Virus record (IMG/VR): IMGVR_UViG_3300036466_000585
Span: 1 to 64,000 of that record
Source: a virus
Strand: one strand, 5' to 3'
DNA length: 64,000 bases
Both the position numbers and the translations under genes were made by a program. This document shows positions 4,963-39,969 of this stretch, in pieces. The notes under the pieces are model-generated. The model searched no databases and was not told where the DNA came from. It saw only the letters and a list, made by a program, of their open reading frames with translations. Every line of letters starts with the position of its first letter. The stretch's first letter is position 1.

Positions 4963-5720
4963 CGGCCACCTGCCTTTCGCGCGGCGCGCGCGATCTTCTG
5001 GATGGTGGCCGGGCCGATGCCCTTGATGCCGGCGAGCGCCTTGCGCTTGGACTCGGTGTTGATCTCGCTCAGCAGCTCGTAGCCGGCGTCCTCGAGCTGG
5101 TTGACGACACGGCCCGGCAAGTCGAGGTCTTCGATGCGCTGGCAGCCGTTCTCTTTGCGCCAGTGGCCGGCCAGGCGGTGGATGGCGCCCTTGATGAAGT
5201 GCTTGTGCTCGCCGGCCATGATGCCGTCGATCAGCCCGCAGAAGATCATGCGGTGTTTCTCCGCCTGGTCGAGCGGCTTGCTGCTGACCATGTACCAGCG
5301 GTCGGGCTCGTGGATGTGCACCTGGTTGAAGGCCAGTTGCACGATCACGGCGCCGTCCTCGCTCTTGATCGTGGCGTGCGGCCCCGGATCCTCGCCGGCC
5401 TTCTCGGCGGGCGCCTTCTCCTTGCGGGCCAGCTCGGCCTCCAGCTGCTGGACGCGCTGCCGGGCTTGATGGCGGACTTGAGTCAGCTCCTTCTTGCCGG
5501 CCGCCTTCTCGGCGGCCAGGCGGTCGGCGCGTTCGCGCTGCTGGTCGGCGTCGGCCTTGGCCTTGTCCCGGCTGGCGGTCGCGCGCTCGGCGAGACGCTG
5601 GGCGGCCAGCAGCTCCTCGCGGAGCTCCTGGTTCTCCAAGGCCAGGCGGATGGCCTCGTCGTAGGGGTCGAGCGAGACACGCGCGGGCGCGCCCTCGCTG
5701 GCGTGGGCGTATGCGTTCAT
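4959..5720 (-). CDS. Coiled-coil protein with C-terminal RNAP alpha-CTD-like / HhH domain
   Basis: C-terminal 'IEDLDLPGRVVNQLEDAGY...LAGIKGIGPATIQKI'; ATG at 5720 with GGAG RBS. Confidence 0.6.
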   Translation of the reverse strand: MNAYAHASEGAPARVSLDPYDEAIRLALENQELREELLAAQRLAERATASRDKAKADADQQRERADRLAAEKAAGKKELTQVRHQARQRVQQLEAELARKEKAPAEKAGEDPGPHATIKSEDGAVIVQLAFNQVHIHEPDRWYMVSSKPLDQAEKHRMIFCGLIDGIMAGEHKHFIKGAIHRLAGHWRKENGCQRIEDLDLPGRVVNQLEDAGYELLSEINTESKRKALAGIKGIGPATIQKIARAARKAGGR

Positions 5721-5748
5721 CGTGGGCTCCATCGGTGGTGGGCGGACG

Positions 5749-6018
5749 TCAGGCGCGATGGCTGGCCAGCTGCCGGCGAAGCTCGTGGTTGTCCTCGCAG
5801 ACGGCGACCACGGCTTCCAGGAAGGTGGCGGGCTTCTTGAACATGCCGGAGCGCCGAATGACCTCATCCAGGTGGCGGCGCGCCTCGTCTTGATCCTCGA
5901 GCTGGTCGGCCAGGCTCACCTTGTCGTCTTCCAGCTCCTGGTTGCGCTGCAGGACCTGCTCGCAGAACGGGCAGTCCGTCGCCGTGACCGGGGTAGGGGT
6001 GTGGGCCAGTGATGTCAT
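5749..6018 (-). CDS. Hypothetical protein (CPFC plus coiled coil)
   Basis: ATGA coupling with rdgC. Confidence 0.6.
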
Positions 6019-9201: not shown

Positions 9202-9229
9202 GAAAAAGGCCACCTCGGTGGGGTGGCCT
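9202..9229 (-). terminator. Rho-independent terminator
   Basis: AGGCCACC-7nt-GGTGGCCT followed by a T run on the minus strand. Confidence 0.75.
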
Positions 9230-16328: not shown

Positions 16329-16466
16329 TCATTGCCATACCTCCTTGAGCTCACGCTTGAGCTGCATGTCGCGCAGCTTTTGGTCAATGAGTCGTCGGCA
16401 GGCGTAGCGGGAGGCGCCGCGCTGGTCGTTCAGCATGCGGCGTTCGTTTTTTGTGATCGGCGTCAT
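16329..16466 (-). CDS. Small protein (45 aa; not in ORF track)
   Basis: MTPITKNERRMLNDQRGASRYACRRLIDQKLRDMQLKRELKEVWQ; GGAG RBS. Confidence 0.45.
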   Translation of the reverse strand: MTPITKNERRMLNDQRGASRYACRRLIDQKLRDMQLKRELKEVWQ

Positions 16467-16486
16467 ACCAGGCTCCGTGTATCCGT

Positions 16487-16510
16487 AAAAAAGCCCGCGC
16501 GGTGGCGGGC
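16487..16510 (-). terminator. Rho-independent terminator
   Basis: GCCCGC-6nt-GCGGGC followed by TTTTTT on the minus strand. Confidence 0.75.
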
Positions 16511-16935
16511 AATACGCAGGGAACTGAAGTGCCGGTTACAGCGTTCGGCGCACTTTTCGCAGGCTTGGTTATCGCCCTGTGCTGAAACATCGGTGAGAGC
16601 CCTCACTGCCAGGGCGTTTCAGCAAAGACTCTCACCGGTGCCGCCTGTATTCCGGCCCAGGCGCGGGCTCGATCCTGCTCGCGGTCATGGCGCGCCGTAT
16701 CAACCTCGACTGTGCTCATGACTGCTCTCCCCGTGCTTCATGCCACTGTCGTTTTGTGCAAACCACCCAGGCGTGAGAAAGCCCGACGTGGTGATCGCGC
16801 TTGATGTAATTCTTGCGCCACCACCGATTTTTCGAACCGATGTATCGGGCAACGCTGACATGATCTCCGTCCCATTGGGGTATATTGGCGGCACACCATT
16901 TGATGAACGCTCTTGCCTTATCGGATGGAGCGGGG

Positions 16936-17196
16936 TTATGGCAATACCTGGTCACATGCCTTCTCCACTCGACGCCGTGCCGACAACAGCGCGTCGACAG
17001 CATCGATAATCGGATTGATCTGTTCCGCTGCTAGGCCTTTGAGATGCCGAGGCGCGGCGCTCTTTGCGTACCGAAGCGCTGATTCGCACATGATCCAGTC
17101 GCCTGCGTAGGCGAAATGAAGCGCTGTAGATAGGCTTCGATGCGTCTGCGAATTGGGCTCGTACAGACCGACGAGCGATGAGATTTCGGCGATCAT
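16936..17196 (-). CDS. Hypothetical protein (86 aa)
   Basis: ATGA overlap with the upstream gene. Confidence 0.5.
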   Translation of the reverse strand: MIAEISSLVGLYEPNSQTHRSLSTALHFAYAGDWIMCESALRYAKSAAPRHLKGLAAEQINPIIDAVDALLSARRRVEKACDQVLP

Positions 17197-17411
17197 GTGG
17201 GGCGCTCCAGTGAGGCTAGGAGGGCGTCGGCATGCTCGATGGCCTCACTTGTTACATCGGCGACACGGTGTCGCCCGTCGTCGAAGTATCCGCTGGCAAG
17301 CAGTCCTTGCATCGCCGCCATGGCGAATCGCTCGCGCTTGGATAAACCATTGAAATCCTCGTCTTCGTGAAGACCTGGCACCGGCATCGCCGGCCTATCT
17401 GCATTTTTCAT
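17193..17411 (-). CDS. Hypothetical phage protein (72 aa)
   Basis: 'GLSKRERFAMAAMQGLLA...ADALLA' is a common phage motif. Confidence 0.75.
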   Translation of the reverse strand: MKNADRPAMPVPGLHEDEDFNGLSKRERFAMAAMQGLLASGYFDDGRHRVADVTSEAIEHADALLASLERPT

Positions 17412-17438
17412 CTAACACGCTCCGTCATTGAGTGAATT

Positions 17439-17494
17439 GCGCCAAGGCGGGATTCGAACCCGCAACCAGCGGCTTATGAGGCCGATGCTCTAAC
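17439..17494 (-). pseudogene. 5'-truncated tRNA with CAT anticodon (Met/Ile2-like)
   Basis: Minus strand GTTAGAGCA-TCGGC-CTCATAA-GCCGC-TGGTT-GCGGG-TTCGAAT-CCCGC-CTTGGCGC. The D-arm 3' side, anticodon arm and T arm are present. The adjacent 5' acceptor and D strands are absent, and CCA is not encoded. Confidence 0.7.
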
Positions 17495-17507
17495 GCAGGG
17501 GTAGGGG

Positions 17508-17722
17508 GATGCGGTGGCCGGTACTGATCTCCGGCCTGGACTTTCACCGCAGGGGCGGGGCGCGATCCCCGCATTGTGTCGTCAGGCATTCATCCCAACC
17601 CGAGCGTACCGAGCTACCGGCATGCCCAGTTTTGGGCGGCTGCATCAAAGGCTTTCGTCCTGCCGTTTGCACGGCTTTTCCAGACGCACCTGCTGCGCAT
17701 CAGCCTGCGCATTCACCGCATC
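17508..17722 (-). ncRNA. C4-antisense-like RNA with an enlarged (~157 nt) central arm
   Basis: 9-bp closing stem GATGCGGTG/CACCGCATC; hairpin TGCGCA-GGCTGA-TGCGCA; hairpin GGCCGG-AGATCAGTA-CCGGCC. Resembles the recalled C4/c4-2 phage RNA pattern. Confidence 0.6.
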
Positions 17723-18145
17723 GGGAAGGGCTCGAGCGCGGACCCTAGCCGTCTGCCGGGGCTACCCGCAGCATTGCCGGTTAAATGCCGGGTGCTTCTA
17801 GGCGTCAGCCGTCGCCGACCCTGCTTGCAGGCCGAACCCTTCCCGATGGCCCCTGTTGCCAGGGGCCGGGCGTTACTGAAGCCGTCGGTCGCCGATGATT
17901 GCGCGACCGCGACTCATGCCCGGTATTCTCAGCCCCGGGCGGGGCGCCAAGTGCCACTGTCGCAGCTGCCGCGTCTTGCTGGTGACACGTCGTGGAGTCG
18001 CTTTCCTCCGCGCTTGCCGGCGCTCGCCAGGGTCTACGGCATCCCACCGCGATTATCCTGACGACCCGCTAGGGTCGACGTGCCCGCCTGTCCGGCATGA
18101 GGCCGGATGGCGCCCCCTTACCAAGCCAGGGGGAGGCGTGACCAG

Positions 18146-18157
18146 TTGTTAAAGAGC
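18146..18157 (-). promoter_or_regulatory. boxA antitermination element
   Basis: GCTCTTTAACAA on the minus strand matches the rrn/nut boxA consensus, just after the first gene of the leftward operon. Confidence 0.8.
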
Positions 18158-18170
18158 CGTGGCGGCCGCG

Positions 18171-18479
18171 TCAGATGACGACGGCCGGGATGTCGTCAAG
18201 ACGCTTCGTCAGGCGCCGAGGCGCGTTGCGACGAAGGCTGTCTGGATGCCCGTCGCACATGGCGACGATGAGCAGCAGGCACAGCGGCTTGATGAATCCA
18301 CGGCTGATGGAGAGGGCGACGAGGTGGGCAGTGTTACGTGCTCCTTCACGCTCGCAAGCGATCTGGAGATGGCGACGAACCGTTGCCAGTGCGCAGCACA
18401 GGGTGTCGGCGACTTCCTGAGCGGTGTTGCCGCGTGCCAGGAGCTCGACTATCTGTGTTTGACGCTTGGTCAGGCTCAT
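18171..18479 (-). CDS. LuxR-type HTH regulator (102 aa)
   Basis: 'LTKRQTQIVELLARGNTAQEVADTLCCALATVRRHL...GARNTAHLVA'. Confidence 0.85.
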   Translation of the reverse strand: MSLTKRQTQIVELLARGNTAQEVADTLCCALATVRRHLQIACEREGARNTAHLVALSISRGFIKPLCLLLIVAMCDGHPDSLRRNAPRRLTKRLDDIPAVVI

Positions 18480-18496
18480 CTCGTCCGCCTCAACAA

Positions 18497-18552
18497 TCAA
18501 CCGATGCGTTGATAGTAGGAGTCGAGGCGGAACCAGTCAACTATAGAATTGA
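18497..18552. promoter_or_regulatory. Two candidate repressor operators (TCAA-N8-TTGA) overlapping pL
   Basis: TCAAccgatgcgTTGA 18497-18512 and TCAActatagaaTTGA 18537-18552; related TCTAccataatgTTGA at 20628-20643 upstream of cro. Confidence 0.55.
18512..18540 (-). promoter_or_regulatory. Sigma70 promoter of the leftward early operon (pL-like)
   Basis: TTGACT (18540-18535), 17-nt spacer, TACTAT (18517-18512). Confidence 0.75.
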
Positions 18553-18907: not shown

Positions 18908-19966
18908 TTATCGCAAGACAAGGGAGGCGAGGTAATCGTAGGCAGCCCTGGCAGCACGAAAGTCGGCAGCCTGGCCGCCGCGGTCGGGGTGAGAGAGTCG
19001 GGCGGCGCGCCGGAAGGCAGCCTTGAGGGAGGCAAAGGGTAGCGGCCAGCTGTCGCGCGCAAGGCCAAGCGTGGCGAGCGCCCAGGAGAGGCTGTTCTCG
19101 GGGAGTTCGATCAAGGTGTCGAGTGGCGGTCTCGAGCCAGCATGATGATACTCGGGCGGGTGATCGTCGTTCATGAAGGCATCGAAGTCGTCGTCGACCT
19201 CCTCGTCATAAGGCAGGAAGTCGGCGGGCGGCGCCACATGATAGGTGCGCCCGGTCGGGCGGTGCTCGACCTGCCCCGTCACCTCCAGCGTGTCCCGAGG
19301 CAGGGCGGCGATGTCGACCAAGTGAAGGCGCCAGGCCGGATGCAGGAAGCCGGCTGACGGCTGGAAGGGCAGGGCATCGACCAGGACGCGGCGGGGCGTG
19401 CGGCGAATGACGCGATGCAGGGTGTCGCGACCGTACCAGTCGCGGGCGTATAGCAGGGTCACGGTCGTCGGCTGGCAGCGCTCCGAGGCGGGACGAGCCG
19501 CCCTGGCAGTGAGGCGCTGGCGTGTGAGGTATCGCTGCAGGAAGGAGGTCGGGCGCCTGATCACATCGCCGCGGACCACCGCCTGCAGGGGTGGGGCGTC
19601 GTCGTCGCGAAGCGCGAGTGGCGGCTGGCCGATGAGGTAGCTGGTCGGGCTGGCCCACACTGCCCATTGCCTGCCATGCGTGGACAGGAAGGGGCGAGCG
19701 TCTCCGGACAGCTCAGCCAGGTTGGCGTTGATGTGGTGATCAGGGCTGAAGCGCAGGCGTTTGGCCATGCCGAGCATGACGGCGGTGGCCAGCATGTCGG
19801 CCTGGTGGGCGGCATAGCCTGAAGTCAGCGGGGCTCGGCTCACGTCAGGGCTGGGCGCGATGTCCCACAGGCACCACAGCCAGCCGCCGCGGCGCTCGGC
19901 CCAGGTTACCAGGTCGTGAGACCCCGCCCCGGGCAGGGCGACGACAGACAGATAGTGCTCCTTCAT
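18908..19966 (-). CDS. Protein with C-terminal DnaJ (J) domain
   Basis: 'LATLGL...LKAAFRRAARLSHPDRGG...FRAARAAYDYL' with intact HPD. Confidence 0.75.
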   Translation of the reverse strand: MKEHYLSVVALPGAGSHDLVTWAERRGGWLWCLWDIAPSPDVSRAPLTSGYAAHQADMLATAVMLGMAKRLRFSPDHHINANLAELSGDARPFLSTHGRQWAVWASPTSYLIGQPPLALRDDDAPPLQAVVRGDVIRRPTSFLQRYLTRQRLTARAARPASERCQPTTVTLLYARDWYGRDTLHRVIRRTPRRVLVDALPFQPSAGFLHPAWRLHLVDIAALPRDTLEVTGQVEHRPTGRTYHVAPPADFLPYDEEVDDDFDAFMNDDHPPEYHHAGSRPPLDTLIELPENSLSWALATLGLARDSWPLPFASLKAAFRRAARLSHPDRGGQAADFRAARAAYDYLASLVLR

Positions 19967-19974
19967 GGCAGTGG

Positions 19975-20481
19975 TTAGCCGTTGGCTTCCGTGCCGCCGT
20001 CAGTGCGCGACTGCCATTCGCGCTTCTTCTGAGACACCTCGAGCAACAGCTCGCCGCGCGCCTCGCTTTCCGTTCTGCCGGCTAGCAACAGGTCATGCGC
20101 CCGCCGCATTACCCACAAGAACTGCTCCATGGAGCCGTTGGGAAGGAGCTCGGATACCACCAGCTCGGTGACGTCGTAGGCGGTGCCGAGCAGCTGATCC
20201 GCCGGCCCAAAGCTGCCTTCTCCGCTCGAGACGCCGGTTCGCCCCGATAGCCAGGCCAGCGACACGCCGTAAAGGTCTGCCAGTCGTCGCAAGGTCTCGC
20301 GCTCCGGCTTCGACTTGCCCTTGGCCCACTTAGATACCGCCGCCGTGCCGGCGCCGGAGTCTTGAGCGATGACCTTCTGCATGCCGTAGACCTTCTCCCG
20401 GCGATGATGCTTGAGGGCGGACTCCAGGATCCGTTCCCAGACAAGGCGCTTCTCTTCTTCTTCCGAGGCAGGTCTCGGCAT
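19975..20481 (-). CDS. XRE-family HTH protein, probable phage repressor (168 aa)
   Basis: 'QKVIAQDSGAGTAAVSKWAKGKSKPERETLRRLADLYGVSLAWL'; divergent from Cro-like genes; GGAGG RBS. Confidence 0.8.
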   Translation of the reverse strand: MPRPASEEEEKRLVWERILESALKHHRREKVYGMQKVIAQDSGAGTAAVSKWAKGKSKPERETLRRLADLYGVSLAWLSGRTGVSSGEGSFGPADQLLGTAYDVTELVVSELLPNGSMEQFLWVMRRAHDLLLAGRTESEARGELLLEVSQKKREWQSRTDGGTEANG

Positions 20482-20662
20482 TGGCTTGTTCCTCCGCCAT
20501 GCCAGCGATGGGTGGGTGATGAACGTCGAATCAACAATCGTTTGGTTGATTATAGGCGCCATTCCCGCCTTGCCAATTCATCGGAAACAACCATTTTTTT
20601 GCAGAATCAAATCTACGTGGCATACTCTCTACCATAATGTTGATTCTTCTGGTGGAAGGCCC

Positions 20663-26431: not shown

Positions 26432-27432
26432 TGGCGAAGTTGACGGAGCAGCAGTGGCAGAAGGCGAGAGAAACCTGGGAGGCGGATTCCCGCGACGGGT
26501 ATGCCTGGCTGATTCGGGAACTGGGGCTCGACGTGTCGGGCCCTGCCGTGCGCAAGCGCGCCCTCAAGGAGGAGTGGAGCAAGGGCGGCGGCAAGGCGAA
26601 ACCGGGCGGGAAACCGAAAACCCAGAAACCCAAGGCGAAAACCGGAAACCGGAAACCACGGCAGAAACCGGAAACCCCCGTCGAGGAGCTGGAGGAGCTG
26701 CCGCCGGAGCTTGCAGACAAGGCGGAACCGCTGGAGGAGGCCGATTCCATCCCGTTCGATGAGGGGGAGGAGGGGCAGGGCGCACCACTTCACGGCTTGA
26801 CCCTAACGCGCGTGACCACGATTTCGCTCGAGGACGACTTCGGCGACAGTCCGCTTCACGACATCTACGAGACCGACGCCCCGGGGCGCACCAAGTACCG
26901 CCGGCAGTACGCCCGGCTGGCCTACAAGCATGCCCTGCTGGGCGCGACGCCCGCCCACGTCGCCAGCCTGCTGGAGGTGACCGAGCAGACCGTCTACGAC
27001 TGGATGAGCGCCCATTCCGAGTTCCGCGCCGCCATGGAGCAGGGGCGCATGGACGCCGACGCCAACGTGGCGCGCTCGCTGTACAAGAAGGCCACCGGCT
27101 ACACGCATCAGGCGGTGAAGGTGTTCCAGTACCAGGGGCAGCCGGTCGTCGTGCCCTATACCGAGATCGTCCCGCCGGATACCGAGGCCGCGAAGTTCTG
27201 GCTCAAGAATCGCCAGCCCGAGATGTGGAAGGACAAGGTGGAGGTCGAGGAGAAGCCCAGCATCGCCCTGGTGGATCGCGAGGCACGCCGGGAGCGCATC
27301 GAGGCCGCGCTGGAGAAGGCCGCGCAGGTCGAGCGCGAGATGCGCGACCGGGCCAACCGCCTGGGGCTGATCATCGACGGCAGCACGGGCGAGGTCGACG
27401 ATGGCGGCATAGGCGGGGTGGGCGATGGCTAG
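26431..27432 (+). CDS. Terminase small subunit
   Basis: Upstream of terL; 'GRTKYR...LGAT...ADANVARSLYKKATGY...PPDTEAAKFWLKNRQPEMWKDK'. Confidence 0.85.
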   Translation: MAKLTEQQWQKARETWEADSRDGYAWLIRELGLDVSGPAVRKRALKEEWSKGGGKAKPGGKPKTQKPKAKTGNRKPRQKPETPVEELEELPPELADKAEPLEEADSIPFDEGEEGQGAPLHGLTLTRVTTISLEDDFGDSPLHDIYETDAPGRTKYRRQYARLAYKHALLGATPAHVASLLEVTEQTVYDWMSAHSEFRAAMEQGRMDADANVARSLYKKATGYTHQAVKVFQYQGQPVVVPYTEIVPPDTEAAKFWLKNRQPEMWKDKVEVEEKPSIALVDREARRERIEAALEKAAQVEREMRDRANRLGLIIDGSTGEVDDGGIGGVGDG

Positions 27433-28948
27433 GAAGCGCACCCTGCTGCACGAGGATCCGCGCTGGGAGGAGTTCAGCGACGACTTCGCCGGCGACCTGG
27501 TGGGCTTCGCCATCGATGTCGTCGAGCTGCCGCCCACGCCTCAGCAGATCACGCTCTACAACAGCGTGGCGCCGTCGCGTTCCATGGTCTCGGTGGCGTC
27601 CGGCCACGGCACGGGCAAGACGACCGCATTGGCCACCATCGTGCTGTGGCACATGCTCTGCTATCCGCAGTCGATCACCCTGCTGACCGCCAACGACATG
27701 GCGCAGCTCAAGGCCACGCTGTGGAAAGAGATTGGCATGGCCGTCGAGCGCATCCGCAAGGGGCCCTACGGCTGGATCGCCGACCATATCGAGATCCTGG
27801 CCAACGGCCAGATGCGCATCATCGGCTTTCCCGACACCTGGTTCGTCGAGTCCAAGACCGCCAACGAGAAGACCGCCAACAAGATGGCGGGGCGTCACGG
27901 CGAGTGGCTGATGATCATCGGTGACGAGGCGTCGACGCTCCCCGACGCGGTACTGACCACGCTGCGCGGCGCCCTGACCGAAGAACACAACCGCATGCTG
28001 CTGACCTCGCAGCCGACCCGCAACTCGGGGTTCTTCTACCGGACGCATCACGACCTGAGCAAGCTCAACGGCGGCGACTGGACGCCGCTGGTGTTCTCCT
28101 CGCTGGAGTCGCCGCTGGTCAGTGACCAGGCCCTCAAGGAGCTGTGGGACAGCTACGACGAGGACGAGCGGCGTGTGCGCCTGCTGGGCCAGTTCCCGCA
28201 GGAATCGGGCAAGCACATGATGAACCTGCCCGTGGCGGAGTCCATGTATCGCCGGGGCCGCATCATCGGCGACGACGAGCCCTATGGCTGGGTGGTGCTG
28301 TCCGATATCGCCAGCGGCGAAGGCTTGCGCGACAAGTCGGCTATCGTCGTGGCTCGGATCATCGGTTATGGCGAACGCGGCCCCGATGCGCGCCGCGTGG
28401 AGATTGTGACCGTGCCGGTGGTGACCAACAACGTGCGCGCCAACGTCTTCGCCGGCGCCGTAGCCGAGCAGGGCGACCCCTATGACGGCGTGACCTATGC
28501 CGTCGACTCCGGCGGGCTGGGCATCAACGTCTGCCAGGACCTGGAGGACATGGGCAAGCCGCTTCATCGCATCAACTGGGGAAACCCGTGCTTCCAGAAC
28601 AAGAACAAGGAGCGCTACCTTAACCTTCGCGCTCAGGCCATGCACCAGGCCGCGCGCGCCGCCAAGGAGGGGAGGCTGTCGATCCTGACCGGCGAGTACC
28701 GCAACGCCATGCTGTCGCAGTCGAGCCGCATCCCCAAGACCTTCACTGACAAGGGGCGCATCCGCGTGCCGCCCAAGCACAGCAAGGAGTGGGAGGGCAT
28801 GGCGTCTCCCGACCTATGGGACGCCGTGTGCTTCGCCTTCATCGAGGGGCTGGTCTACACCGCCAGCCAGGAAGGGCCGGGCGAGGGCCGCACTCTGGGT
28901 GAATCACTGGAGAGTGAGGTCGAAGCGCTCTTTGGTGACGTGGTGTAA
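27425..28948 (+). CDS. Terminase large subunit, P1 PacB-like
   Basis: N-terminal DPRW, Walker A SGHGTGKT, Walker B IIGDEAS, nuclease SDIASGEG and SPDLWDA. Confidence 0.92.
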   Translation: MARKRTLLHEDPRWEEFSDDFAGDLVGFAIDVVELPPTPQQITLYNSVAPSRSMVSVASGHGTGKTTALATIVLWHMLCYPQSITLLTANDMAQLKATLWKEIGMAVERIRKGPYGWIADHIEILANGQMRIIGFPDTWFVESKTANEKTANKMAGRHGEWLMIIGDEASTLPDAVLTTLRGALTEEHNRMLLTSQPTRNSGFFYRTHHDLSKLNGGDWTPLVFSSLESPLVSDQALKELWDSYDEDERRVRLLGQFPQESGKHMMNLPVAESMYRRGRIIGDDEPYGWVVLSDIASGEGLRDKSAIVVARIIGYGERGPDARRVEIVTVPVVTNNVRANVFAGAVAEQGDPYDGVTYAVDSGGLGINVCQDLEDMGKPLHRINWGNPCFQNKNKERYLNLRAQAMHQAARAAKEGRLSILTGEYRNAMLSQSSRIPKTFTDKGRIRVPPKHSKEWEGMASPDLWDAVCFAFIEGLVYTASQEGPGEGRTLGESLESEVEALFGDVV

Positions 28949-28988
28949 ACTGATCGCTCTCATCATCGCAACGCCACGGAGCCATGGA

Positions 28989-29441
28989 ATGACCCGAGTC
29001 CGCCACGCCATCGCCACTACCCTGGGCGCCGCCGCCCTGTTCGCCAGCACGGTCCACGCCGAGCCACTGGTGACCCGCGACCAGGTGCGTGAAATCACGA
29101 CCATGATGTACAACGCCTACCAGTATGGCGGGGCGGCGGAGATGTACCGGGCGGAGAGTCAGTGCTGGGAAGACCTGACGGCTGCCACGGGCGATGCCGA
29201 GGTGATCGCGGCGGCTTGCGGCATTGCCAACGTGGCGGCAGCCACGATCGAGGCCGGGTATGCGCAACAGCAGGGCCGCCTACCGGTGCTTGAGTATCGC
29301 GCCGATGCCGCCATTACCCGCATCGAGGAGCGCATGGCTGAGAATCAATTCAGTCAGGCATCCATTGAGCGCATGAAGTCCGAAACCCTGAACCCGCACT
29401 TGGGCAGCGTGCTGGCCGCACTGTCCCTGGCCGGAATGTGA
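28989..29441 (+). CDS. Exported hypothetical protein (Sec signal peptide)
   Basis: MTRVRHAIATTLGAAALFASTVHA|EP; two Cys in the mature part. Confidence 0.7.
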   Translation: MTRVRHAIATTLGAAALFASTVHAEPLVTRDQVREITTMMYNAYQYGGAAEMYRAESQCWEDLTAATGDAEVIAAACGIANVAAATIEAGYAQQQGRLPVLEYRADAAITRIEERMAENQFSQASIERMKSETLNPHLGSVLAALSLAGM

Positions 29442-29452
29442 GGAGAAGTCCT

Positions 29453-29758
29453 ATGGAAGTGACGATCAAACTCGAGAGCATGCTGTTTCCCTATCGCGAG
29501 GCTATTGTTGAGTCTGCGTCGCGCGTATTGCCTGCCGGAAGCACATTGAGCGCCGAGGCGCTCGACAACGATGACATGGGCGCCGGCCAAGGGGTGAGCA
29601 TCCAAGTCATCGAGCGTGAGGATGAGCTGGATTACAGTCTTCGCGAAAAGCTGCTGGGCGCAATCAAGGAGCGCGCGGAGCTCGAGGTCTTTCGGGAGTG
29701 GTACAGGAGCTTCCCGTTGCGCGGCAGTGCGTCTCCATTTTCCATTTCATCCCAATAG
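29453..29758 (+). CDS. Hypothetical protein
   Basis: GAGGAG RBS. Confidence 0.6.
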   Translation: MEVTIKLESMLFPYREAIVESASRVLPAGSTLSAEALDNDDMGAGQGVSIQVIEREDELDYSLREKLLGAIKERAELEVFREWYRSFPLRGSASPFSISSQ

Positions 29759-29774
29759 ATAGCGGGGGCTAAGC

Positions 29775-30449
29775 ATGCAGTGGTGGAAGTTCGCTTGCCC
29801 TCGATGCGAGGCTGGAGTTCTGGGTTACACCATCCGCGAACCAAAGGAGGGTGATGATCGTGAAGACGTCTGGAACCATAACACTTTCCTGATTCATGGT
29901 GATGGTGCCGCGACAAAGGAATACGATATTGTCGCCTGCGCATCGTGCGGCGCTCAGCGCGTAGAGGTTGGCGAGCTATCCATGCGGCATGTTGAGCGTT
30001 GCGATGCCGAGCAGTCGCGGCAGCTGACAGAAAGAGTGGAAAAGTCCAATAGCGGAGAAGCGCTCGACCCTTTTCCGTCCAGCCATCAATTACATGGCTT
30101 CTGGGAGCTTTCCGAGCGTGAGCGCGAGGGACCAGTTTGGGCGCTAGGGTTCCAATCCCCCAACAGGCAGCCGGCCCGGAATGGATCTATAATCATGATT
30201 AGTAACATGAAAAAAATTGCTAGTAACGTGTACTTGGTGAGGACTCAGGCTGGGTTCAGAAAAGCTGTTCAGGATTGCTTTTCTGATACATTTGAGGACT
30301 TGCCGTGGATGATGAGAAGTAGAATGGACGGGAACCCTGATAGTTATCCAGCCGTCGTGTCTCTAACGCTAGGCTACAAAGGAGATGTGTTCATTCAGTG
30401 CTCCAGCGTTCATGTTGAGGTAATGAAAGAGGCGTTAAGTAATGCTTAA
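29775..30449 (+). CDS. Hypothetical protein (N-terminal CxxC...CxxC; low-GC 3' half)
   Basis: CPRC and CASC; may be a fusion, or have an internal start near 30208. Confidence 0.5.
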   Translation: MQWWKFACPRCEAGVLGYTIREPKEGDDREDVWNHNTFLIHGDGAATKEYDIVACASCGAQRVEVGELSMRHVERCDAEQSRQLTERVEKSNSGEALDPFPSSHQLHGFWELSEREREGPVWALGFQSPNRQPARNGSIIMISNMKKIASNVYLVRTQAGFRKAVQDCFSDTFEDLPWMMRSRMDGNPDSYPAVVSLTLGYKGDVFIQCSSVHVEVMKEALSNA

Positions 30450-30684
30450 TGTAGCGCAGACAATAGCGCAGACAAAGAAGGCGCCGCCGGCGGTTATGTT
30501 CTACCCGGCTTGGGTGACGGGGGCGGATGTCGTCATGTCTACAGCGGGCCATTCCTCGCGCGAGGAGGCATTGACTGCAGCCAAGGCTGATCCTCGTTGC
30601 GGAGAGGGGGTGACTCCCATTGCTATGCCGGGCCCTGGAGGAGGGGTGGTGGTGTTGGATAAAGCGGGTAGGGTAAAGGCATAA
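30442..30684 (+). CDS. Hypothetical protein (80 aa)
   Basis: GAGG RBS; overlaps the upstream stop. Confidence 0.5.
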   Translation: MLNVAQTIAQTKKAPPAVMFYPAWVTGADVVMSTAGHSSREEALTAAKADPRCGEGVTPIAMPGPGGGVVVLDKAGRVKA

Positions 30685-30750
30685 GGATAGCGTTAAGCTA
30701 GTTGACGAAAAAGGCTTTGGAGTCTTCGTCCTTAAAGCACAGGAGTATCC

Positions 30751-31116
30751 ATGGAAAGTCCCAATATATACCGAGACATGCTGAATAAAAGAGATGTGCA
30801 GGGATTAGCGAAGCGCTGCGGACTGAAGTCTTTTTTAATGGAAAGAGGCGACGCGCCCTTTGTTAGAGTTGAGTCGGGTCATGGGTCAGGCCCTCGGGGG
30901 AGCTATTACCATTACGCGCTTCTTTCTACCGACGGAAAGCTTGTAGCGCTAGGTGAGGAACAGGGTAATTATGCGGGCGGTGAGTATGCTTTCGCTCCCG
31001 GCGCTGAACCAAGAGGTTTTGCTTTCCCCCGTAGGATTGACCTTGCGGCGATAGAAGAGCTCCCCTCTGAGCTGTCTGGCTTTCTGAAGAGTATCGGGGC
31101 AACCAAGGGGCTTTAA
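30751..31116 (+). CDS. Hypothetical protein (121 aa, low GC)
   Basis: AGGAG RBS. Confidence 0.6.
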   Translation: MESPNIYRDMLNKRDVQGLAKRCGLKSFLMERGDAPFVRVESGHGSGPRGSYYHYALLSTDGKLVALGEEQGNYAGGEYAFAPGAEPRGFAFPRRIDLAAIEELPSELSGFLKSIGATKGL

Positions 31117-31118
31117 TA

Positions 31119-31162
31119 CCAGGAAAACCCCGCACCAACCCCTGACATCCCTACCGCATCAT
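31119..31162 (+). promoter_or_regulatory. Candidate late promoter 1
   Basis: GGAAAA 31122-31127, 29 nt, CATCAT 31157-31162. Confidence 0.7.
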
Positions 31163-31190
31163 GCCCCTTGTGGAAACAACCGTGAGGGGC

Positions 31191-32021
31191 ATGACCATGC
31201 AGCAACCTCCGCTGATCAAGTACAACCTGAAGGATCGTGGCCGCCAGCATCGCGGCGTGGAGCGTCACTTCGACATTCCGGCCATCGTGGCCAGCATCAA
31301 CGGCCCGGCCACTCAGGAGCGCGTGCAGACGCGCGGCATGCTGGGCTACTTCGGCCACTGGCCGCGCGTGCGCTTCGGCATGGAGCCCGCCGAGGGAGGT
31401 GTGGCCGACGGCAAGGCGCACGCCATCGAGCCCGCCGTGGTCACCACCCACCTGAAGGCCTACGACGACGGCACCATCGAGCACCAGACCGAGTTCCTCG
31501 ATACCGCCACCGGCCAGCTGGCGTCGCGCATGTACGCCAACCGGGTGGGCGGCTTCTCGACCGCCATCGATCCGCGCAAGCCCGAGCTCTACGGCTTCGA
31601 TTGGGTCAACGACCCGAACTACTCGACCAACCGCGGCTATGACCTGGTGCTGGACAGCGTGACCAGCGGCGAGATGACCTTCGACGACGTGCTGTCCGCC
31701 GAGCATGCCGAGCAGGTCGACGCCATGAACCGGCTGTTCGAGATGATGGAGGCCAACCTGCGCCTGGCCATGGATTCGGCGACCCGCTTCGAGCACGAGA
31801 ACAGCGAGCTTCTCGACCTGCTGAGCAAGCGCGAGGAGCAGGCCAGCCAGGCCGCCCTGGTCACCGACAGCGCGGCCGCTGCCGACACCGCTCGCCAGCT
31901 GGACCGCGACCGCCGCTTCTTCATGGACTCCGCGCTGCCGCGCTTTCAGGATCCCGAGACCCGGGAGGAGCACGACCGCGACTACCTGCGCCTGAAGCGT
32001 CGGATGTTCTTCCATGTTTGA
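31191..32021 (+). CDS. Prohead protease, P1 Pro-like
   Basis: GYFGHWPR, HQTEFLDTATG and GGFSTA resemble recalled P1 Pro motifs. Confidence 0.75.
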   Translation: MTMQQPPLIKYNLKDRGRQHRGVERHFDIPAIVASINGPATQERVQTRGMLGYFGHWPRVRFGMEPAEGGVADGKAHAIEPAVVTTHLKAYDDGTIEHQTEFLDTATGQLASRMYANRVGGFSTAIDPRKPELYGFDWVNDPNYSTNRGYDLVLDSVTSGEMTFDDVLSAEHAEQVDAMNRLFEMMEANLRLAMDSATRFEHENSELLDLLSKREEQASQAALVTDSAAAADTARQLDRDRRFFMDSALPRFQDPETREEHDRDYLRLKRRMFFHV

Positions 32022-32739
32022 GCCCGTCAAGGTCGGTCTCGGCGAGTTCCTGCAGGACTTCTACGCCGAAGTGGTGCCCACCACCAAGCCCCTGCAGGAG
32101 TTCGTCGAGCGCGGCTTCCCGTACTGCGCGGCCTGGGCGCCGGCGCGCATGGTCGACAAGGCCGAGGAGATGCTGTCGCAGTGGCAGCGCAACGACACGC
32201 ACCAGGCCGCGACCCGGCCGCCCAGCCTGCCGGTGATCCTGGTCGCCGTGGCCAAGGACTGGACGCCGACCGAGCGCAGCTTCACCACGCAGATCGCCGA
32301 CCCGGTGGACATCACCTTCCCCGACGACCCCAAGCAACGCTACTTCCGGGTGCGCACTGTGGCCGGCGAGGTCCGCGCCCAGCTGGCGTTCTTCGCCAGC
32401 GACGAGCCCACGGCCAAGAGCCTGGCCGCCCAGTTCCTGCTGTACCTGGATTCGCCCAGCCGTCGCCGCTTCCTGGCCCGCTACCCGTTCGCCGGGCTCG
32501 AGCACGAGTACCCGGCTCAGGTGGAGGCCCCGGACAACCCGGCGATGAACGTCGAGACCGGCAACAAGAACCTGTCCGTGCTGGCCGTCGACCTGGTGCT
32601 CAAGGTCACGGTGCCGCTGTTCATGGCGCCCAAGGCCGGCGAGCCCAACGACGGCAAGGGCGTTCCCGGTACCGACGACCCGGCCGGCTATCCGCTGGTG
32701 TCCGAGGTCGATCCCGAGGAGAGAGAGGTCGCCCCATGA
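32014..32739 (+). CDS. Virion morphogenesis protein (possible tail terminator)
   Basis: Position in the late operon only. Confidence 0.45.
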   Translation: MFEPVKVGLGEFLQDFYAEVVPTTKPLQEFVERGFPYCAAWAPARMVDKAEEMLSQWQRNDTHQAATRPPSLPVILVAVAKDWTPTERSFTTQIADPVDITFPDDPKQRYFRVRTVAGEVRAQLAFFASDEPTAKSLAAQFLLYLDSPSRRRFLARYPFAGLEHEYPAQVEAPDNPAMNVETGNKNLSVLAVDLVLKVTVPLFMAPKAGEPNDGKGVPGTDDPAGYPLVSEVDPEEREVAP

Positions 32740-33221
32740 TCCAGCTGCAGGCCAATATCAGCGGCTTCGCCGGCAGGCCCGCCACGGTGCTGGGCGCCCT
32801 CGACGAGGAGACCGGCATCCTGGTGGTGGCCGCCGTGACCGACATCATGCCTCGCCGCGACGGCTGCGTGGTGATCGACACCAACACGCGGGCCGACCGC
32901 GATTCGCTGTTCGAGTACGGCGACCTGAAGGAGGCCATCACCGCCTATTACGACCTCAAGGGCACGGTGGCCGCCGACGGCCGTAGCGCCTGCCTGCGCT
33001 TCATGGAGCGCGCCATGCGCGCCGACCCGGCCGGCGGCATCGAGATGGACGGCGTGGACACGACGGGCCCCATCTACCGCATCTCGCCGGACGCCGGCAA
33101 TGCACAGGTGGGCGCCCTGGCGCTGTGCCGCTACGCCAAGCACTACGGCGCGGTGGCCGACACCCTGGCCATGGCCGATGAGCTCTCCCGGCTGCTGGCC
33201 GGGCAGGCGGTGACCATATGA
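32736..33221 (+). CDS. Hypothetical late protein (161 aa)
   Basis: ATGA coupling on both sides; start trimmed from ORF 32181..33221. Confidence 0.6.
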   Translation: MIQLQANISGFAGRPATVLGALDEETGILVVAAVTDIMPRRDGCVVIDTNTRADRDSLFEYGDLKEAITAYYDLKGTVAADGRSACLRFMERAMRADPAGGIEMDGVDTTGPIYRISPDAGNAQVGALALCRYAKHYGAVADTLAMADELSRLLAGQAVTI

Positions 33222-33556
33222 GCGTCGACCGCAAGAGCCAGGCCGCGCGGGTGTTCTATCGCCTGGTGCGCGACTTCTCGCAGTCGGTGAAGCCCTGGGA
33301 GCAGGCCATCTATCACGACGTGGCCCCGGACGAGCGCTGGGACATCACGCTCACCGCGCGCAAGGTCTACGGCGACGCCGGCGAGTTCCTGGCCATCATG
33401 GCCGCCGCCGGCATGGAGACCGTCGACCAGCCCCTGGAGCAACAGCGCCTGGTGCTGCCCAGCGCCGACCGGCTGCGCGCCTTCAAGCGCCGTGCCGGCT
33501 TCGAGTCGCGTGCCGACTACCGCGACCGCGACGGACCGACGTGGAGGACTGATTGA
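33218..33556 (+). CDS. Baseplate protein, P1 gp26-like (LysM-like)
   Basis: 'ERWDITLTARKVYG...IMAAAG...LVLP' resembles recalled gp26. Confidence 0.6.
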   Translation: MSVDRKSQAARVFYRLVRDFSQSVKPWEQAIYHDVAPDERWDITLTARKVYGDAGEFLAIMAAAGMETVDQPLEQQRLVLPSADRLRAFKRRAGFESRADYRDRDGPTWRTD

Positions 33557-35136: not shown

Positions 35137-35160
35137 CTTCAGCTGCTGCTGTCGATCGTT

Positions 35161-35183
35161 GCCGGCCTAGCGCCGGCTTTTTT
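35161..35183 (+). terminator. Rho-independent terminator
   Basis: GCCGGC-CTAGC-GCCGGC-TTTTTT. Confidence 0.8.
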
Positions 35184-35193
35184 GTGCCGCAAA

Positions 35194-35237
35194 CCCGGAA
35201 AAACGCCCGAAACCGGCCGTCGCGGCACCTTCAGACT
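35194..35237 (+). promoter_or_regulatory. Candidate late promoter 2 (capsid operon)
   Basis: GGAAAA 35197-35202, 29 nt, CAGACT 35232-35237. Confidence 0.7.
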
Positions 35238-35296
35238 CGAACCATCCGGCCACCTGGTCGGCCTTGCACTTCCCTGTGAGCAAAGGAGAGAGGGCT

Positions 35297-36973: not shown

Positions 36974-36985
36974 GGGGAGTAGCAC

Positions 36986-37534: not shown

Positions 37535-37548
37535 GGGGGTAGCAACCG

Positions 37549-39201: not shown

Positions 39202-39210
39202 GGAGAAACC

Positions 39211-39924: not shown

Positions 39925-39946
39925 TCCGACGACGGGTGGGGTGCTT

Positions 39947-39969
39947 GGCGGCCAGTGGCCGCCTTTTTT
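39947..39969 (+). terminator. Rho-independent terminator
   Basis: GGCGGCC-AGT-GGCCGCC-TTTTTT. Confidence 0.75.

What the first reader, a model, noticed from the sequence alone, without database searches (positions are those of the whole stretch)
17430..18157. ~720-nt structured non-coding leader: boxA, long-range stems, C4-like RNA and tRNA piece in one transcript
Seen: no RBS-backed ORF lies between luxR (ends 18171) and the gene at 17411, yet the region is packed with complementarity on the minus strand. There is a 16-bp stem 17833-17848/17719-17734 (one G-U, on the minus strand only) and GCAA tetraloop hairpins (17848-17867, 17662-17675). T-loop-like motifs occur (GCUGAGAAUACC in hairpin 17918-17940; GGUGAAAGUCC at 17538-17548), as do three GACGGCU repeats (17747, 17807, 17880). 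A consensus boxA opens the region. Established: boxA recruits NusB/S10, and phages encode large structured RNAs near tRNAs (e.g. GOLLD). Inference: a large multi-domain phage ncRNA, or a cis-acting antitermination/processing platform for the ~17-kb leftward operon, which has internal terminators at 16487 and 9202 and no recognisable N gene. I cannot assign it to a known family.
Basis: partly seen in the sequence, partly recalled or inferred. Interest (0 to 1): 0.85.

Follow-up and report, generated by a model that had tools for sequence, protein, structure and literature searches.

The report
Mosaic phage leader with kissing cloverleaf
A 760-base gene-free stretch at the head of a prophage's early operon is a patchwork of RNA parts: an anti-termination signal, a folded domain, a gene scar, a broken tRNA, and a tRNA-shaped RNA that is common in phages but in no RNA catalogue searched.

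Summary
The stretch 17412-18170 (minus strand) is non-coding and structured, but it is a mosaic, not one RNA.

Parts, 5' to 3':
1. A perfect boxA (18146-18157) lies just after a small LuxR-type gene. A boxA holds this position in 6 of 7 related loci.
2. A folded domain of about 225 nt, shared with only two relatives.
3. A 45-nt scar of a 71-codon ORF that both relatives keep.
4. A GCAA hairpin and a 130-nt domain closed by the 16-bp stem.
5. A 211-nt tRNA-shaped "kissing cloverleaf" (17510-17720).
6. A 5'-truncated tRNA(CAU).

It has a 7-bp acceptor-like stem, two hairpins whose loops pair (GCUGA/UCAGY) and a hypervariable middle arm.

Its 21-nt core occurs exactly in at least 119 IMG/VR contigs. 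A 41-nt query across that core matches 240 isolated-phage records, among them HK620 and PMG1. Copies sit in early-left or late leaders, often beside tRNA genes.

It matches no Rfam 15 family. Its shell is that of the prophage sRNA STnc100/PasD. This scan met the family before on other DNA.

Function is untested. I favour a boxA-protected untranslated leader carrying RNA cargo that tRNA-processing enzymes cut out.

The parts
18171..18479 (-). Small LuxR/GerE-type HTH gene (102 aa from the conserved Met; the longest ORF runs to 18500). It is the first gene after a promoter-like site at 18512-18540(-). Context, not part of the RNA.
   Evidence: Pfam GerE 2.4e-08. 11 homologues, all about 102 aa. 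Promoter-like TTGACT-17-TACTAT.
18146..18157 (-). boxA (GCUCUUUAACAA)
   Evidence: The only perfect match in the 64 kb. A boxA lies 15-45 nt after the LuxR-type stop in the window, L071, L073, L074, L075 and L076, but not in L072.
17918..18143 (-). Module A: a conserved folded domain. It holds hairpins CCCCCU../..AGGGGG and CCGGC-CUCAU-GCCGG, a multi-branch domain closed by about 9 bp, and a terminal hairpin with the loop GCUGAGAAUA (17918-17940).
   Evidence: 90% identical to L071 and 74% to L073. RNAalifold gives 75 pairs, 12 of them kept through changes on both sides, but from only 3 sequences, two of them near-identical. A pattern scan found it in no other IMG/VR contig.
17873..17917 (-). 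Scar of a 71-codon ORF. The window lacks the RBS and most of the ORF and keeps only its last codons and stop; by chance the scar reads as a 14-codon ORF.
   Evidence: L071 5606-5821 and L073 (about 5554-5772) carry the ORF. Homology with L071 breaks at window 17917 and resumes at 17884-17839.
17848..17867 (-). GCAA-tetraloop hairpin (GGCCCCUG-GCAA-CAGGGGCC)
   Evidence: Read. Kept in L071 5826-5846.
17719..17848 (-). Long-hairpin domain closed by the 16-bp stem. It abuts the cloverleaf and shares 2 nt with its first stem.
   Evidence: L073 has a 13-bp stem at the same place with several positions changed on both sides, and L071 has two such hairpins (read). In the family, an uninterrupted stem of 10 bp or more ends at the cloverleaf's start in 52 of 92 members, against 9 of 92 at a control position 40 nt upstream.
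17510..17720 (-). Kissing cloverleaf (model R1).
- P1: 17714-17720 with 17510-17516 (UGCGGUG/CACCGCA).
- Junction: AAU.
- P2: 17695-17710 (GCGCA-GGCUGA-UGCGC).
- 160-nt variable insert.
- P4: 17517-17535 (GCCGG-AGAUCAGUA-CCGGC).
- Loop-loop pairing: 17700-17704 with 17523-17527.
   Evidence: Exact 21-nt core plus the 3' motif. R1 matches of 32.2 and 30.6 bits, split by the long insert. Family covariation.
17438..17496 (-). 5'-truncated tRNA(CAU) pseudogene. The anticodon arm, T arm and 3' acceptor strand remain; the 5' acceptor strand and most of the D arm are gone, and no CCA is encoded.
   Evidence: Rfam tRNA 28.1 bits against a cut-off of 29. ARAGORN finds nothing. Intact tRNA(CAU) genes sit immediately 3' of the cloverleaf in L078, L113 and L141, and align with it.
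17193..17411 (-). First downstream gene (72 aa, PHROG 2201, function unknown). Context.

Best explanation
The region is the untranslated leader segment of the prophage's early-left operon. The gene order is repressor, a 352-aa gene, [promoter-like site], the LuxR-type gene, this region, then the recombination genes and integrase. It is assembled from independent modules.

SHOWN
- A perfect boxA that holds its position in related loci.
- A lineage-specific folded domain.
- A deletion scar of a small ORF.
- A cassette of 'long hairpin + kissing cloverleaf + tRNA(CAU)' whose tRNA is truncated.
- The cloverleaf belongs to a very widespread phage RNA family with tRNA geometry. A 7-bp stem stacks directly on a 5-bp stem. 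A D-arm-like and a T-arm-like hairpin are joined by a 5-bp loop-loop helix in place of the tRNA elbow. The anticodon-arm position holds a hypervariable insert of 25-163 nt.
- The family's shell is that of the prophage sRNA STnc100.

INFERRED
- boxA loads NusB/S10 and the other Nus factors on RNA polymerase. That would let polymerase cross this ribosome-free stretch of about 760 nt, and perhaps the terminator-like sites at 16493-16510 and 9207-9229, without Rho-dependent termination, as in rRNA operons.
- The cloverleaf, and in relatives the tRNA next to it, is RNA cargo. tRNA-processing enzymes would cut it out of the transcript: RNase P at the 5' end of the 7-bp stem, and possibly RNase III in the long hairpin.
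- The released stable RNA would carry a conserved scaffold and a phage-specific variable arm. That arm may be a base-pairing or specificity module, as reported for the related PasD sRNAs.
For: ANATOMY AND MOSAICISM
- The blastn break-points against L071 and L073 and the reading of those loci.
- R1 has no match in L071.
- The tRNA alignment.

NON-CODING
- Flat codon-phase G+C.
- Insert lengths are not multiples of three (25, 33, 34, 35, 37, 38, 39, 43, 47 ...).

FAMILY SIZE
- A 41-nt query across the core matches 240 isolated-phage records: Klebsiella 62, Pseudomonas 53, Escherichia 39, with Burkholderia, Erwinia and others.
- A 351-nt query holding the L087 copy and its flanks matches at least in part in 1404 of 5426 complete E. 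coli genomes; 67 cover 80% or more of it.

STRUCTURE
- On 108 matches, 94.1% of cells pair against 86.2% in shuffles. 128 cells change on both sides against 31.2. 0 of 500 shuffles reach this, and slid controls pair at 22-47%.
- The 7 inner pairs of P1 pair in 97% of sequences or more. The two outer pairs fail in 30 and 51 of 108, so the stem is 7 bp long.
- G-U pairs on this strand (for example U-G 10 times at one P1 pair) point to RNA read from this strand.

LOOP-LOOP HELIX
- In 95 distinct copies the P4 loop keeps C, A and G in 95 of 95 and U in 92 of 95. The last position is C (84) or U (11), never a purine, while the flanking loop bases vary.
- In copies with the partner G changed to A (41 loci), the partner is U in 15 and C in 7 distinct sequences, against C 84 and U 11 with G. 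Fisher p = 1.9e-7.
- On alignment A6 the pair types are GC 53, AU 14, GU 9, other 7.

tRNA KINSHIP
- The HK75 copy has a canonical D arm and a GGUUCGAUUCC T arm in the same shell.
- 13 of 60 family loci carry tRNA genes. Comparing the coordinates, 12 of these have a tRNA on the same strand within a few hundred nt.

CONTEXT
- Upstream ORF clusters whose representatives I scanned are S24 repressors (7 + 2 loci) or Q antiterminators (4 + 4 loci).
- Downstream clusters are holins (8 weak, 4, 2) or small terminase (2).
- In HK620 the copy lies between pR'/qut and the annotated late terminator.
- In Stx2a_1447 it lies after cI, as in the window.

STnc100 LINK
- Rfam's STnc100 consensus has the same closing helix UGGUG/CACCA, an AAU junction, a first hairpin, variable arms, and a last hairpin abutting the closing helix.
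- Tandem second copies in L160 and L174 are hit by both R1 (27.9 and 25.7 bits) and STnc100 (34.7 and 30.1 bits, model positions 31-147 only).

boxA
-.
- The established role of BoxA with NusB/NusE against Rho-dependent termination is taken from the abstracts of PMC4807359 and bioRxiv 10.1101/091223, seen in the listing.
Against: - No expression or processing data exist for this phage. My one RNA-seq attempt, on the E. coli copy, gave no read ends.
- The boxA function is inferred from sequence and position alone.
- Module A's structure rests on three sequences, two of them near-identical.
- The window's cloverleaf has the second-longest insert of 95. The model splits it into two local matches of about 31 bits. 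The insert holds a second, partial 5'-half-like stretch, so it may be rearranged.
- The neighbouring ORF scar and truncated tRNA show the cassette is decaying in this lineage.
- CCA follows the 7-bp stem in only 8 of 95 copies, so a tRNA-like 3' end is not encoded as a rule.
- A family-wide test found no excess complementarity between the variable insert and the 300 nt downstream: mean rank 0.49, Wilcoxon p = 0.70, on 68 non-redundant copies, with the last row unfinished.
- The window's element does not reach the Rfam STnc100 model, even at E<=10.
Confidence: 0.6

Rival explanations
1. The whole stretch of about 720 nt is one large, multi-domain phage ncRNA of the GOLLD/ROOL kind that folds and acts as a unit.
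For: Dense pairing and a below-shuffle folding energy on the minus strand (z -2.58; -4.62 for 17715-17945). No terminator-like site inside it on that strand.
Against: Relatives split it with a protein gene. L071 lacks the cloverleaf. Module A is confined to three loci, while the cloverleaf occurs alone in hundreds of phages. Two parts are decay products. No Rfam large-RNA family matches.
Confidence: 0.06
2. The cloverleaf is itself a cis-acting antiterminator RNA that modifies RNA polymerase, like HK022 put or a boxB equivalent bound by a phage protein.
For: It sits where nut and put sites sit: just downstream of the early-left promoter region or of pR'/qut, and upstream of terminators. The core sequence is extremely conserved across hosts, which suggests contact with a conserved host machine.
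Against: HK022 has no match, and put is two stem-loops of about 70 nt, not a four-way junction (PMC9378689, passages read). In HK75 the copy lies after the annotated Tr' and in HK620 before the late terminator. boxA-like words are not enriched next to it: 22 of 95 have one within 30 nt, mostly one sub-lineage, and within 400 nt upstream 26 have one against 28 for the reverse-complement control. The 'GUGCUCUUU' next to it proved to be an arm of the long hairpin. Tandem copies and tRNA neighbours fit RNA genes better.
Confidence: 0.12
3. Apart from boxA the region is evolutionary debris: remnants of genes, tRNAs and mobile RNA cassettes left at a recombination junction, with no present function in this phage.
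For: The ORF scar and the truncated tRNA. A segment of about 1.4 kb, present in the window but not in L071, starts here. Weak coding signal continues down to about 16400.
Against: The window's cloverleaf keeps the exact 21-nt core, the P4 hairpin, a P1 whose two strands differ from the common form yet still pair (UGCGGUG/CACCGCA), and a G-U-compatible loop partner. Module A and the long stem keep their pairing through changes on both sides in L073 (read).
Confidence: 0.15
4. The inverted repeats act at the DNA level, as an attachment-site remnant, origin or recombinase site, and the tRNA piece marks an old integration junction.
For: tRNA 3' fragments are typical of att sites (general knowledge). 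The region is a mosaic junction relative to L071.
Against: The integrase gene is 16 kb away at the window's left end. G-U pairs exist on one strand only. Intact tRNA(CAU) genes occupy the same place next to the cloverleaf in other phages. Cloverleaf copies always lie on the strand of the flanking ORFs picked; those ORFs were chosen on that strand, so this is not an independent test.
Confidence: 0.04

Closest known systems
STnc100 (Rfam RF02076) and the related PasD1/PasD2 prophage sRNAs of Salmonella and pathogenic E. coli
   Same: The same shell: a closing helix ..UGGUG/CACCA.., an AAU junction, a first hairpin, variable middle arms, and a last CCGG-type hairpin abutting the closing helix. 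The same neighbourhood, Q and lysis genes of lambdoid prophages (bioRxiv 10.64898/2026.05.13.724894, sections 12 and 17 and passages read). Intermediate copies are hit by both models.
   Different: The window's RNA does not match RF02076 even at E<=10, and R1 scores STnc100 at only 7.0 bits. STnc100 and PasD are stand-alone genes with their own terminator. The cloverleaf has none and sits inside operon leaders. The GCUGA/UCAGY loop-loop helix and the 21-nt core are specific to the cloverleaf.
C4 antisense RNA of phages P1/P7 (Rfam RF01695)
   Same: A phage leader RNA with a long closing stem, a GCGC-type and a GCCGG-type hairpin and a ..CCACC 3' side (consensus seen). That C4 is released from its precursor by RNase P is recalled, not checked.
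   Different: No C4 match in the window region at E<=10, or in seven family loci at E<=1. C4's two loops pair with a target mRNA (recalled), whereas here they pair with each other and are nearly invariant. No antirepressor gene was seen downstream, but I did not search for one.
tRNA and phage tRNA-like stable RNAs
   Same: A 7-bp stem stacked on a 5-bp stem, and a four-way junction with an elbow made by D-like and T-like loops. The HK75 copy has real D and T arms. Copies sit in tRNA clusters.
   Different: No anticodon arm, an insert of 25-163 nt, an elbow replaced by a 5-bp Watson-Crick helix, and CCA rarely encoded (8 of 95). Neither Rfam's tRNA model nor ARAGORN calls it.
boxA of rRNA operons and lambdoid nut sites
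   Same: GCUCUUUAACAA matches the rrn-type boxA consensus as I recall it. It lies early in a long operon, upstream of terminator-like sites.
   Different: No boxB-like GNRA-type pentaloop hairpin is evident beside it, and no N-like gene was identified. It follows the first gene rather than preceding it.
HK022 put RNA
   Same: A protein-independent RNA element in early leaders of a lambdoid phage.
   Different: Two stem-loops of about 70 nt (PMC9378689, passages). The R1 model finds nothing in HK022 27000-40751.

Membership tests
   Exact match at 17696-17716(-).
   UGCGGUG/CACCGCA. P4 at 17517-17535.
   The window has GCUGA and UCAGU, with a terminal G-U (read; family data).
   Two local matches of 32.2 and 30.6 bits (E about 1e-6 to 1e-5) instead of one, because of the 160-nt insert.
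STnc100 (RF02076) | Rfam model at or above 47 bits | tested here: not met
   No STnc100 match at E<=10 in 17100-18500.
STnc100 (RF02076) | Its own intrinsic terminator 3' of the shell | tested here: not met
   No terminator-like site on the minus strand between 17400 and 18170.
STnc100 (RF02076) | Shell: closing helix UGGUG/CACCA, AAU junction, first and last hairpins | tested here: met
   Comparison with the Rfam consensus line. Bridging copies.
C4 antisense RNA (RF01695) | Rfam model at or above 45 bits | tested here: not met
   No match at E<=10. A true C4 in L086 scores 80.7 bits at a different place from that locus's cloverleaf.
C4 antisense RNA (RF01695) | Loops complementary to sites upstream of an antirepressor gene | not tested
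   No antirepressor was looked for. The general insert-versus-downstream test showed no excess.
tRNA (RF00005), for 17438-17496 | Rfam model at or above 29 bits and a complete cloverleaf | tested here: not met
   28.1 bits, D arm absent. ARAGORN finds 0 genes. The alignment shows a 5' truncation.
nut site (boxA + boxB + N) | boxA consensus | tested here: met
   12 of 12 match, unique in the window.
nut site (boxA + boxB + N) | An adjacent boxB hairpin with a GNRA-like pentaloop, and an N-type protein | tested here: inconclusive
   The hairpins after boxA have the loops GGCUUGGU and CUCAU, which are not GNRA-like. No N gene was recognised among the 20 window ORFs scanned against PHROGs; 10 of them were also scanned against Pfam.
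HK022 put RNA | Two-stem RNA of about 70 nt, homologous to putL/putR | tested here: not met
   R1 has no match in the HK022 locus L198 better than E 0.73. The architecture differs (PMC9378689, passages).
Large ornate phage RNAs (GOLLD, ROOL, HEARO, OLE) | A match to the Rfam model | tested here: not met
   0 gathering-level matches in the 64-kb window.

The most novel reading that the evidence does not exclude
The kissing cloverleaf is a distinct class of phage tRNA mimic. A Watson-Crick loop-loop helix replaces the tRNA elbow, and a nearly invariant 21-nt core is kept from enterobacterial to Pseudomonas, Burkholderia and Ectothiorhodospira-type phages. That constancy would arise because the RNA docks on a universally conserved host machine that reads tRNA shape, such as RNase P, the ribosome, a tRNA-modifying enzyme or an anticodon-nuclease defence. 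The hypervariable arm would give each phage its own specificity. STnc100 and PasD would then be terminator-bearing offshoots of this older scaffold.
Probability: 0.2. Interest if true: 0.8.

Novelty: new variant of a known kind. Interest (0 to 1): 0.55.

Why it matters
The cloverleaf's core matches hundreds of phage and prophage records, among them long-studied phages such as HK620 and PMG1. Its 21-nt core is better conserved across hosts than any alignable DNA around it. It is nevertheless unannotated or overlaid by 'hypothetical protein' calls, and it is absent from Rfam 15.

It links tRNA genes, the STnc100/PasD sRNAs and phage leader regions into one structural lineage. If the tRNA-processing route is right, phages would have a general way to make stable RNAs from operon leaders.

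For this window, the result replaces 'one mysterious 720-nt RNA' with a parts list, and each part can be tested on its own. It also shows a boxA tied to a small LuxR-type gene in a group of phages with no recognised N protein.

Tried and rejected
- Whole region against isolated phages (blastn, 801 nt): no match.
- Two 31-nt exact patterns from the region in IMG/VR: no match.
- 69 loci encoding relatives of the 72-aa downstream gene: no DNA similarity to the region, and no R1 match better than E 0.82. The cloverleaf is therefore not tied to that gene.
- LuxR-type protein as a single query in IMG/VR: nothing. As an alignment it gave 4 viral, 2 genome and 1 metagenome locus. The metagenome locus L199 is 76% identical, like L073, and I did not examine it further.
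- Module A pattern scan: only L073's own contig.
- R1 over 151 genomes of the class of L071's genome: 3 weak matches (E 0.004-0.007), with only 25 candidates scored per genome. This is uninformative. The two handle genomes gave 0 matches.
- Antisense idea: the variable insert is no more complementary to its own downstream 300 nt than to those of other loci. The test is crude, because duplex energies are dominated by length and G+C, and the last row was unfinished. Short C4-like loop contacts would be missed.
- boxA next to the cloverleaf: not enriched.
- RNA-seq: 20 of the 24 runs listed hold part of the E. coli-type copy, 13 of them on record as RNA. On laying four runs, the two raw-read runs gave 0 reads. 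The two contig runs cover it but cannot show ends, strand or transcription, and their joints only show other family copies with different inserts. No verdict on expression.
- HK022 put: no relation.
- Pas sRNA preprint: PasA-D have terminators. They are not this RNA, except through the PasD/STnc100 shell.
- Paper searches: searches returned no description of the cloverleaf. One search was only for boxA. Subscription papers on HK620, D3 and P1, and all supplementary files, were not seen and may bear on this.
Full report
WHERE IT IS
The window is the first 64 kb of a 72-kb IMG/VR provirus record. The region lies in the leftward early operon. The gene order on the minus strand is:
- an HTH repressor (19975-20562), followed directly by a 352-aa gene;
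- a gap of about 400 nt holding a promoter-like site (TTGACT-17-TACTAT, 18512-18540);
- a small LuxR/GerE-type gene (18171-18479);
- the region in question;
- small genes, a YuA gp49-like gene, RecT-like, RusA-like and methyltransferase genes, with an integrase at the window's left end.
Terminator-like hairpins lie downstream at 16493-16510 and 9207-9229 on the same strand.

Yes, in the main.
- Codon-phase G+C is flat across 17740-18190.
- No ORF in the region has a family match.
- The minus strand folds better than shuffles. The whole region gives z -2.58, 17715-17945 gives -4.62 and 17505-17724 gives -2.46. The plus strand gives -1.25.
- Rfam finds nothing at gathering level in the whole window. 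At E<=10 it finds only a near-threshold tRNA fragment (28.1 bits against 29) at 17438-17496. ARAGORN finds none.
- GACGGCT is not over-represented in the window: 22 matches against 15.3 +/- 4.1 expected.

RELATIVES SHOW A MOSAIC
The LuxR-type protein has 11 homologues. An alignment of them brought in L071 (Ectothiorhodospira mobilis DSM 237), L073 to L076 (IMG/VR) and L072 (a Halomonas).

L071 is about 90% identical to window 20600-17917. The two then part until 16531, apart from a 47-nt island. L073 is 74% identical down to 17977.

In both relatives the conserved stretch after boxA is followed by a 71-codon ORF. The window keeps only that ORF's last codons and stop (17873-17917).

After that ORF:
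- L071 has the same GCAA hairpin, two long hairpins and a terminator, but no cloverleaf.
- L073 has a GCUGAGAAUA hairpin, a long hairpin whose 13-bp stem differs from the window's at several positions on both sides, and a cloverleaf.

The parts are therefore separable.

boxA
- GCTCTTTAACAA is the only perfect match in 64 kb.
- A boxA follows the LuxR-type stop in the window, L071 and L073.
- It also follows that stop in L074, L075 and L076. Their LuxR proteins are only 54-57% identical, and their downstream DNA does not align with the window.
- L072 lacks it there. That makes 6 of 7 loci.
- The role of BoxA with NusB/NusE in preventing Rho-dependent termination is established for rRNA operons (abstracts of PMC4807359 and bioRxiv 10.1101/091223, seen in the listing). 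Applying it here is inference.

MODULE A (17918-18143)
RNAalifold on the three sequences gives two hairpins, a multi-branch domain closed by about 9 bp and the terminal GCUGAGAAUA hairpin. 12 of 75 pairs are kept through changes on both sides. With three sequences this is suggestive only. A pattern scan found no further copy.

THE CLOVERLEAF
A 30-nt island shared by the window and L073 led to the 21-mer GTGAATGCGCAGGCTGATGCG.
- 102 of 121 occurrences have the motif GCCGGAGATCAGCACCGGCCACC (up to 5 changes) within 500 nt downstream. These give 95 distinct sequences with 25-163 nt in between.
- I built model R1 from 16 short-insert copies. It finds 108 matches at E<=0.001 in 100 sources.
- On these, 94.1% of cells pair, against 86.2% in shuffles and 22-47% in slid controls. 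128 cells change on both sides, against 31.
- The seven inner P1 pairs hold in 97% of sequences or more. The two outer pairs fail in 30 and 51 of 108.
- The stem is thus 7 bp long and stacks directly on the 5-bp P4, which is tRNA geometry.

The two hairpin loops are complementary.
- With the 5' loop fixed at GGCUGA, the 3' loop keeps UCAG (U 92 of 95; C, A and G 95 of 95). The next position is C (84) or U (11), and the flanking loop bases vary.
- I then scanned for the variant GACUGA and got 41 loci. There the partner is U in 15 and C in 7 distinct sequences. Fisher p = 1.9e-7 against the canonical set.
- On a joint alignment the pair types are GC 53, AU 14, GU 9, other 7, and the helix pairs in 97.5% of cells.
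- Both sets were selected by exact 21-mers and the sequences are related, so the p value is indicative only.

THE LONG HAIRPIN BELONGS TO THE UNIT
An uninterrupted stem of 10 bp or more ends within a few bases of the cloverleaf's start in 52 of 92 copies. At a control position 40 nt upstream the figure is 9 of 92. The window's 16-bp stem is one of these. This also explains the boxA-like 'GUGCUCUUU' beside many E. coli-type copies: it is an arm of that hairpin, not a boxA (read).

KINSHIP WITH tRNA
- In phage HK75 the same shell carries a canonical D arm (GCUC-AAUGGC-GAGC) and T arm (GCCGG-UUCGAUU-CCGGC).
- 13 of 60 family loci have tRNA genes. Set against the cloverleaf coordinates, 12 have one on the same strand within a few hundred nt.
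- In L078, L113 and L141 a tRNA(CAU) starts within about 12 nt of the cloverleaf's end.
- The window's tRNA piece aligns with these but lacks the 5' acceptor strand and most of the D arm.
- CCA follows the 7-bp stem in only 8 of 95 copies.

CONTEXT AND SPREAD
- Where clusters of flanking ORFs could be named, the upstream gene is an S24 repressor (9 loci) or a Q antiterminator (8 loci). The downstream gene is a holin (14 loci, 8 of them on a weak match) or a small terminase (2 loci). Most of the 71 upstream and 66 downstream clusters are singletons that I did not annotate.
- In HK620 the copy lies between pR'/qut and the annotated late terminator. In HK75 it lies after Tr'. In Stx2a_1447 it lies after cI, as in the window. 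In PMG1 it lies before a tRNA and the holins.
- A 41-nt query across the core matches 240 isolated-phage records from many proteobacterial hosts. The feature under the match is 'none' or 'hypothetical protein' in every annotated record among the 40 rows shown.
- A 351-nt query holding the L087 copy and its flanks matches at least in part in 1404 of 5426 E. coli genomes; 67 cover 80% or more of it.

WHAT IS IT CLOSEST TO?
No Rfam family matches the cloverleaf in 20 loci at gathering level or in 7 loci at E<=1.
- A true STnc100 in Stx2a_1447 scores 153.8 bits. Rfam's consensus for it has the same shell: a closing helix UGGUG/CACCA, an AAU junction, a first hairpin, variable arms, and a CCGGG-AGGCA-CCCGG hairpin abutting the closing helix.
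- R1 scores it at only 7.0 bits.
- Tandem second copies in L160 and L174 are hit by R1 (27.9 and 25.7 bits) and by STnc100 (34.7 and 30.1 bits, below the 47-bit cut-off, model positions 31-147 only).
- They bridge the two families.

STnc100 and PasD are described as prophage-encoded sRNAs near Q and the lysis genes. They carry terminators, and PasD has RIL-seq targets (bioRxiv 10.64898/2026.05.13.724894; outline, sections 12 and 17 and passages read).

The cloverleaf is not C4 and not put.

HOW IT MOST LIKELY WORKS
Shown: the anatomy, the conservation and the contexts.

Inferred:
(a) boxA makes polymerase Rho-resistant across the ribosome-free leader. My odds are about 50%.
(b) The cloverleaf is released by tRNA-processing enzymes as a stable RNA. 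About 40%.
(c) Its variable arm gives specificity, by analogy with PasD and STnc100. About 25%.

A first test of (c), against the adjacent 300 nt, showed no excess.

In this window the cassette looks partly decayed. It has an ORF scar, a truncated tRNA and a very long insert holding a partial second 5'-half-like stretch. The cloverleaf's own defining features are nevertheless intact.

VERDICT
The leader is ordinary in kind: a mosaic, boxA-headed phage leader. It carries a member of a widespread, uncatalogued, tRNA-shaped RNA family related to STnc100, which this scan had already met on other DNA.

Noticed in passing
window 18908-19966 (-): A 352-aa gene directly after the repressor ends in a J-domain-like stretch (..LSHPDRGG..AAYDYL..). 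It has only weak PHROG matches to families of unknown function and no Pfam match.
   Followed up: no
window 18171-18479 (-) and L071-L076: A small LuxR/GerE-type protein with a hydrophobic stretch after the HTH (..LCLLLIVAMC..) is always followed by boxA. It occupies the place of N in lambda and is the first gene after a promoter-like site. Its role is unknown.
   Followed up: partly
L071 5606-5821; L073 about 5554-5772; L072 about 5325: A conserved 71-codon ORF (MAIDTIDAAM...) has no PHROG match (one search list). It is deleted in the window and seems interrupted by an early stop in L072.
   Followed up: partly
window 16400-17200: Weak codon-phase signal. The 86-aa ORF 16936-17196 has no family. 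The whole 17917-16531 segment is absent from L071, so it may be an inserted cassette.
   Followed up: no
L071 5840-6065: Two tandem long hairpins (arms CAUCGAGAAGCG../..CGCUUCUCGAUG) followed by a terminator stand where the window has a long hairpin plus the cloverleaf.
   Followed up: no
L196 (HK75) 2583-2727: A form of the shell with canonical tRNA D and T arms and an insert of about 75 nt. It may be a link between tRNA genes and the cloverleaf family.
   Followed up: partly
L160 6302-6446(-), L163 3614-3748(+), L174 3545-3679(+): Second, tandem copies of a sub-type (P4 loop AGGCA) lie about 230-260 nt downstream of a canonical cloverleaf. They are intermediate between R1 and STnc100.
   Followed up: partly
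L077 5199-6319: An IS3-family element lies between two oppositely oriented cloverleaf copies. Rfam gives IS1222 frameshift element, 156.6 bits.
   Followed up: no
L197 (Stx2a_1447) 2400-2510 and 2700-2720: Several T-arm-like fragments lie upstream of the cloverleaf, and a boxA-like CGCUCUUUUUACAA lies about 45 nt downstream of it in that phage's early-left leader.
   Followed up: no
window 17747, 17807, 17880 (-): Three GACGGCU words lie within 140 nt. This is locally unusual, though the word is not enriched across the window. The 17880 copy is not kept in L071.
   Followed up: partly
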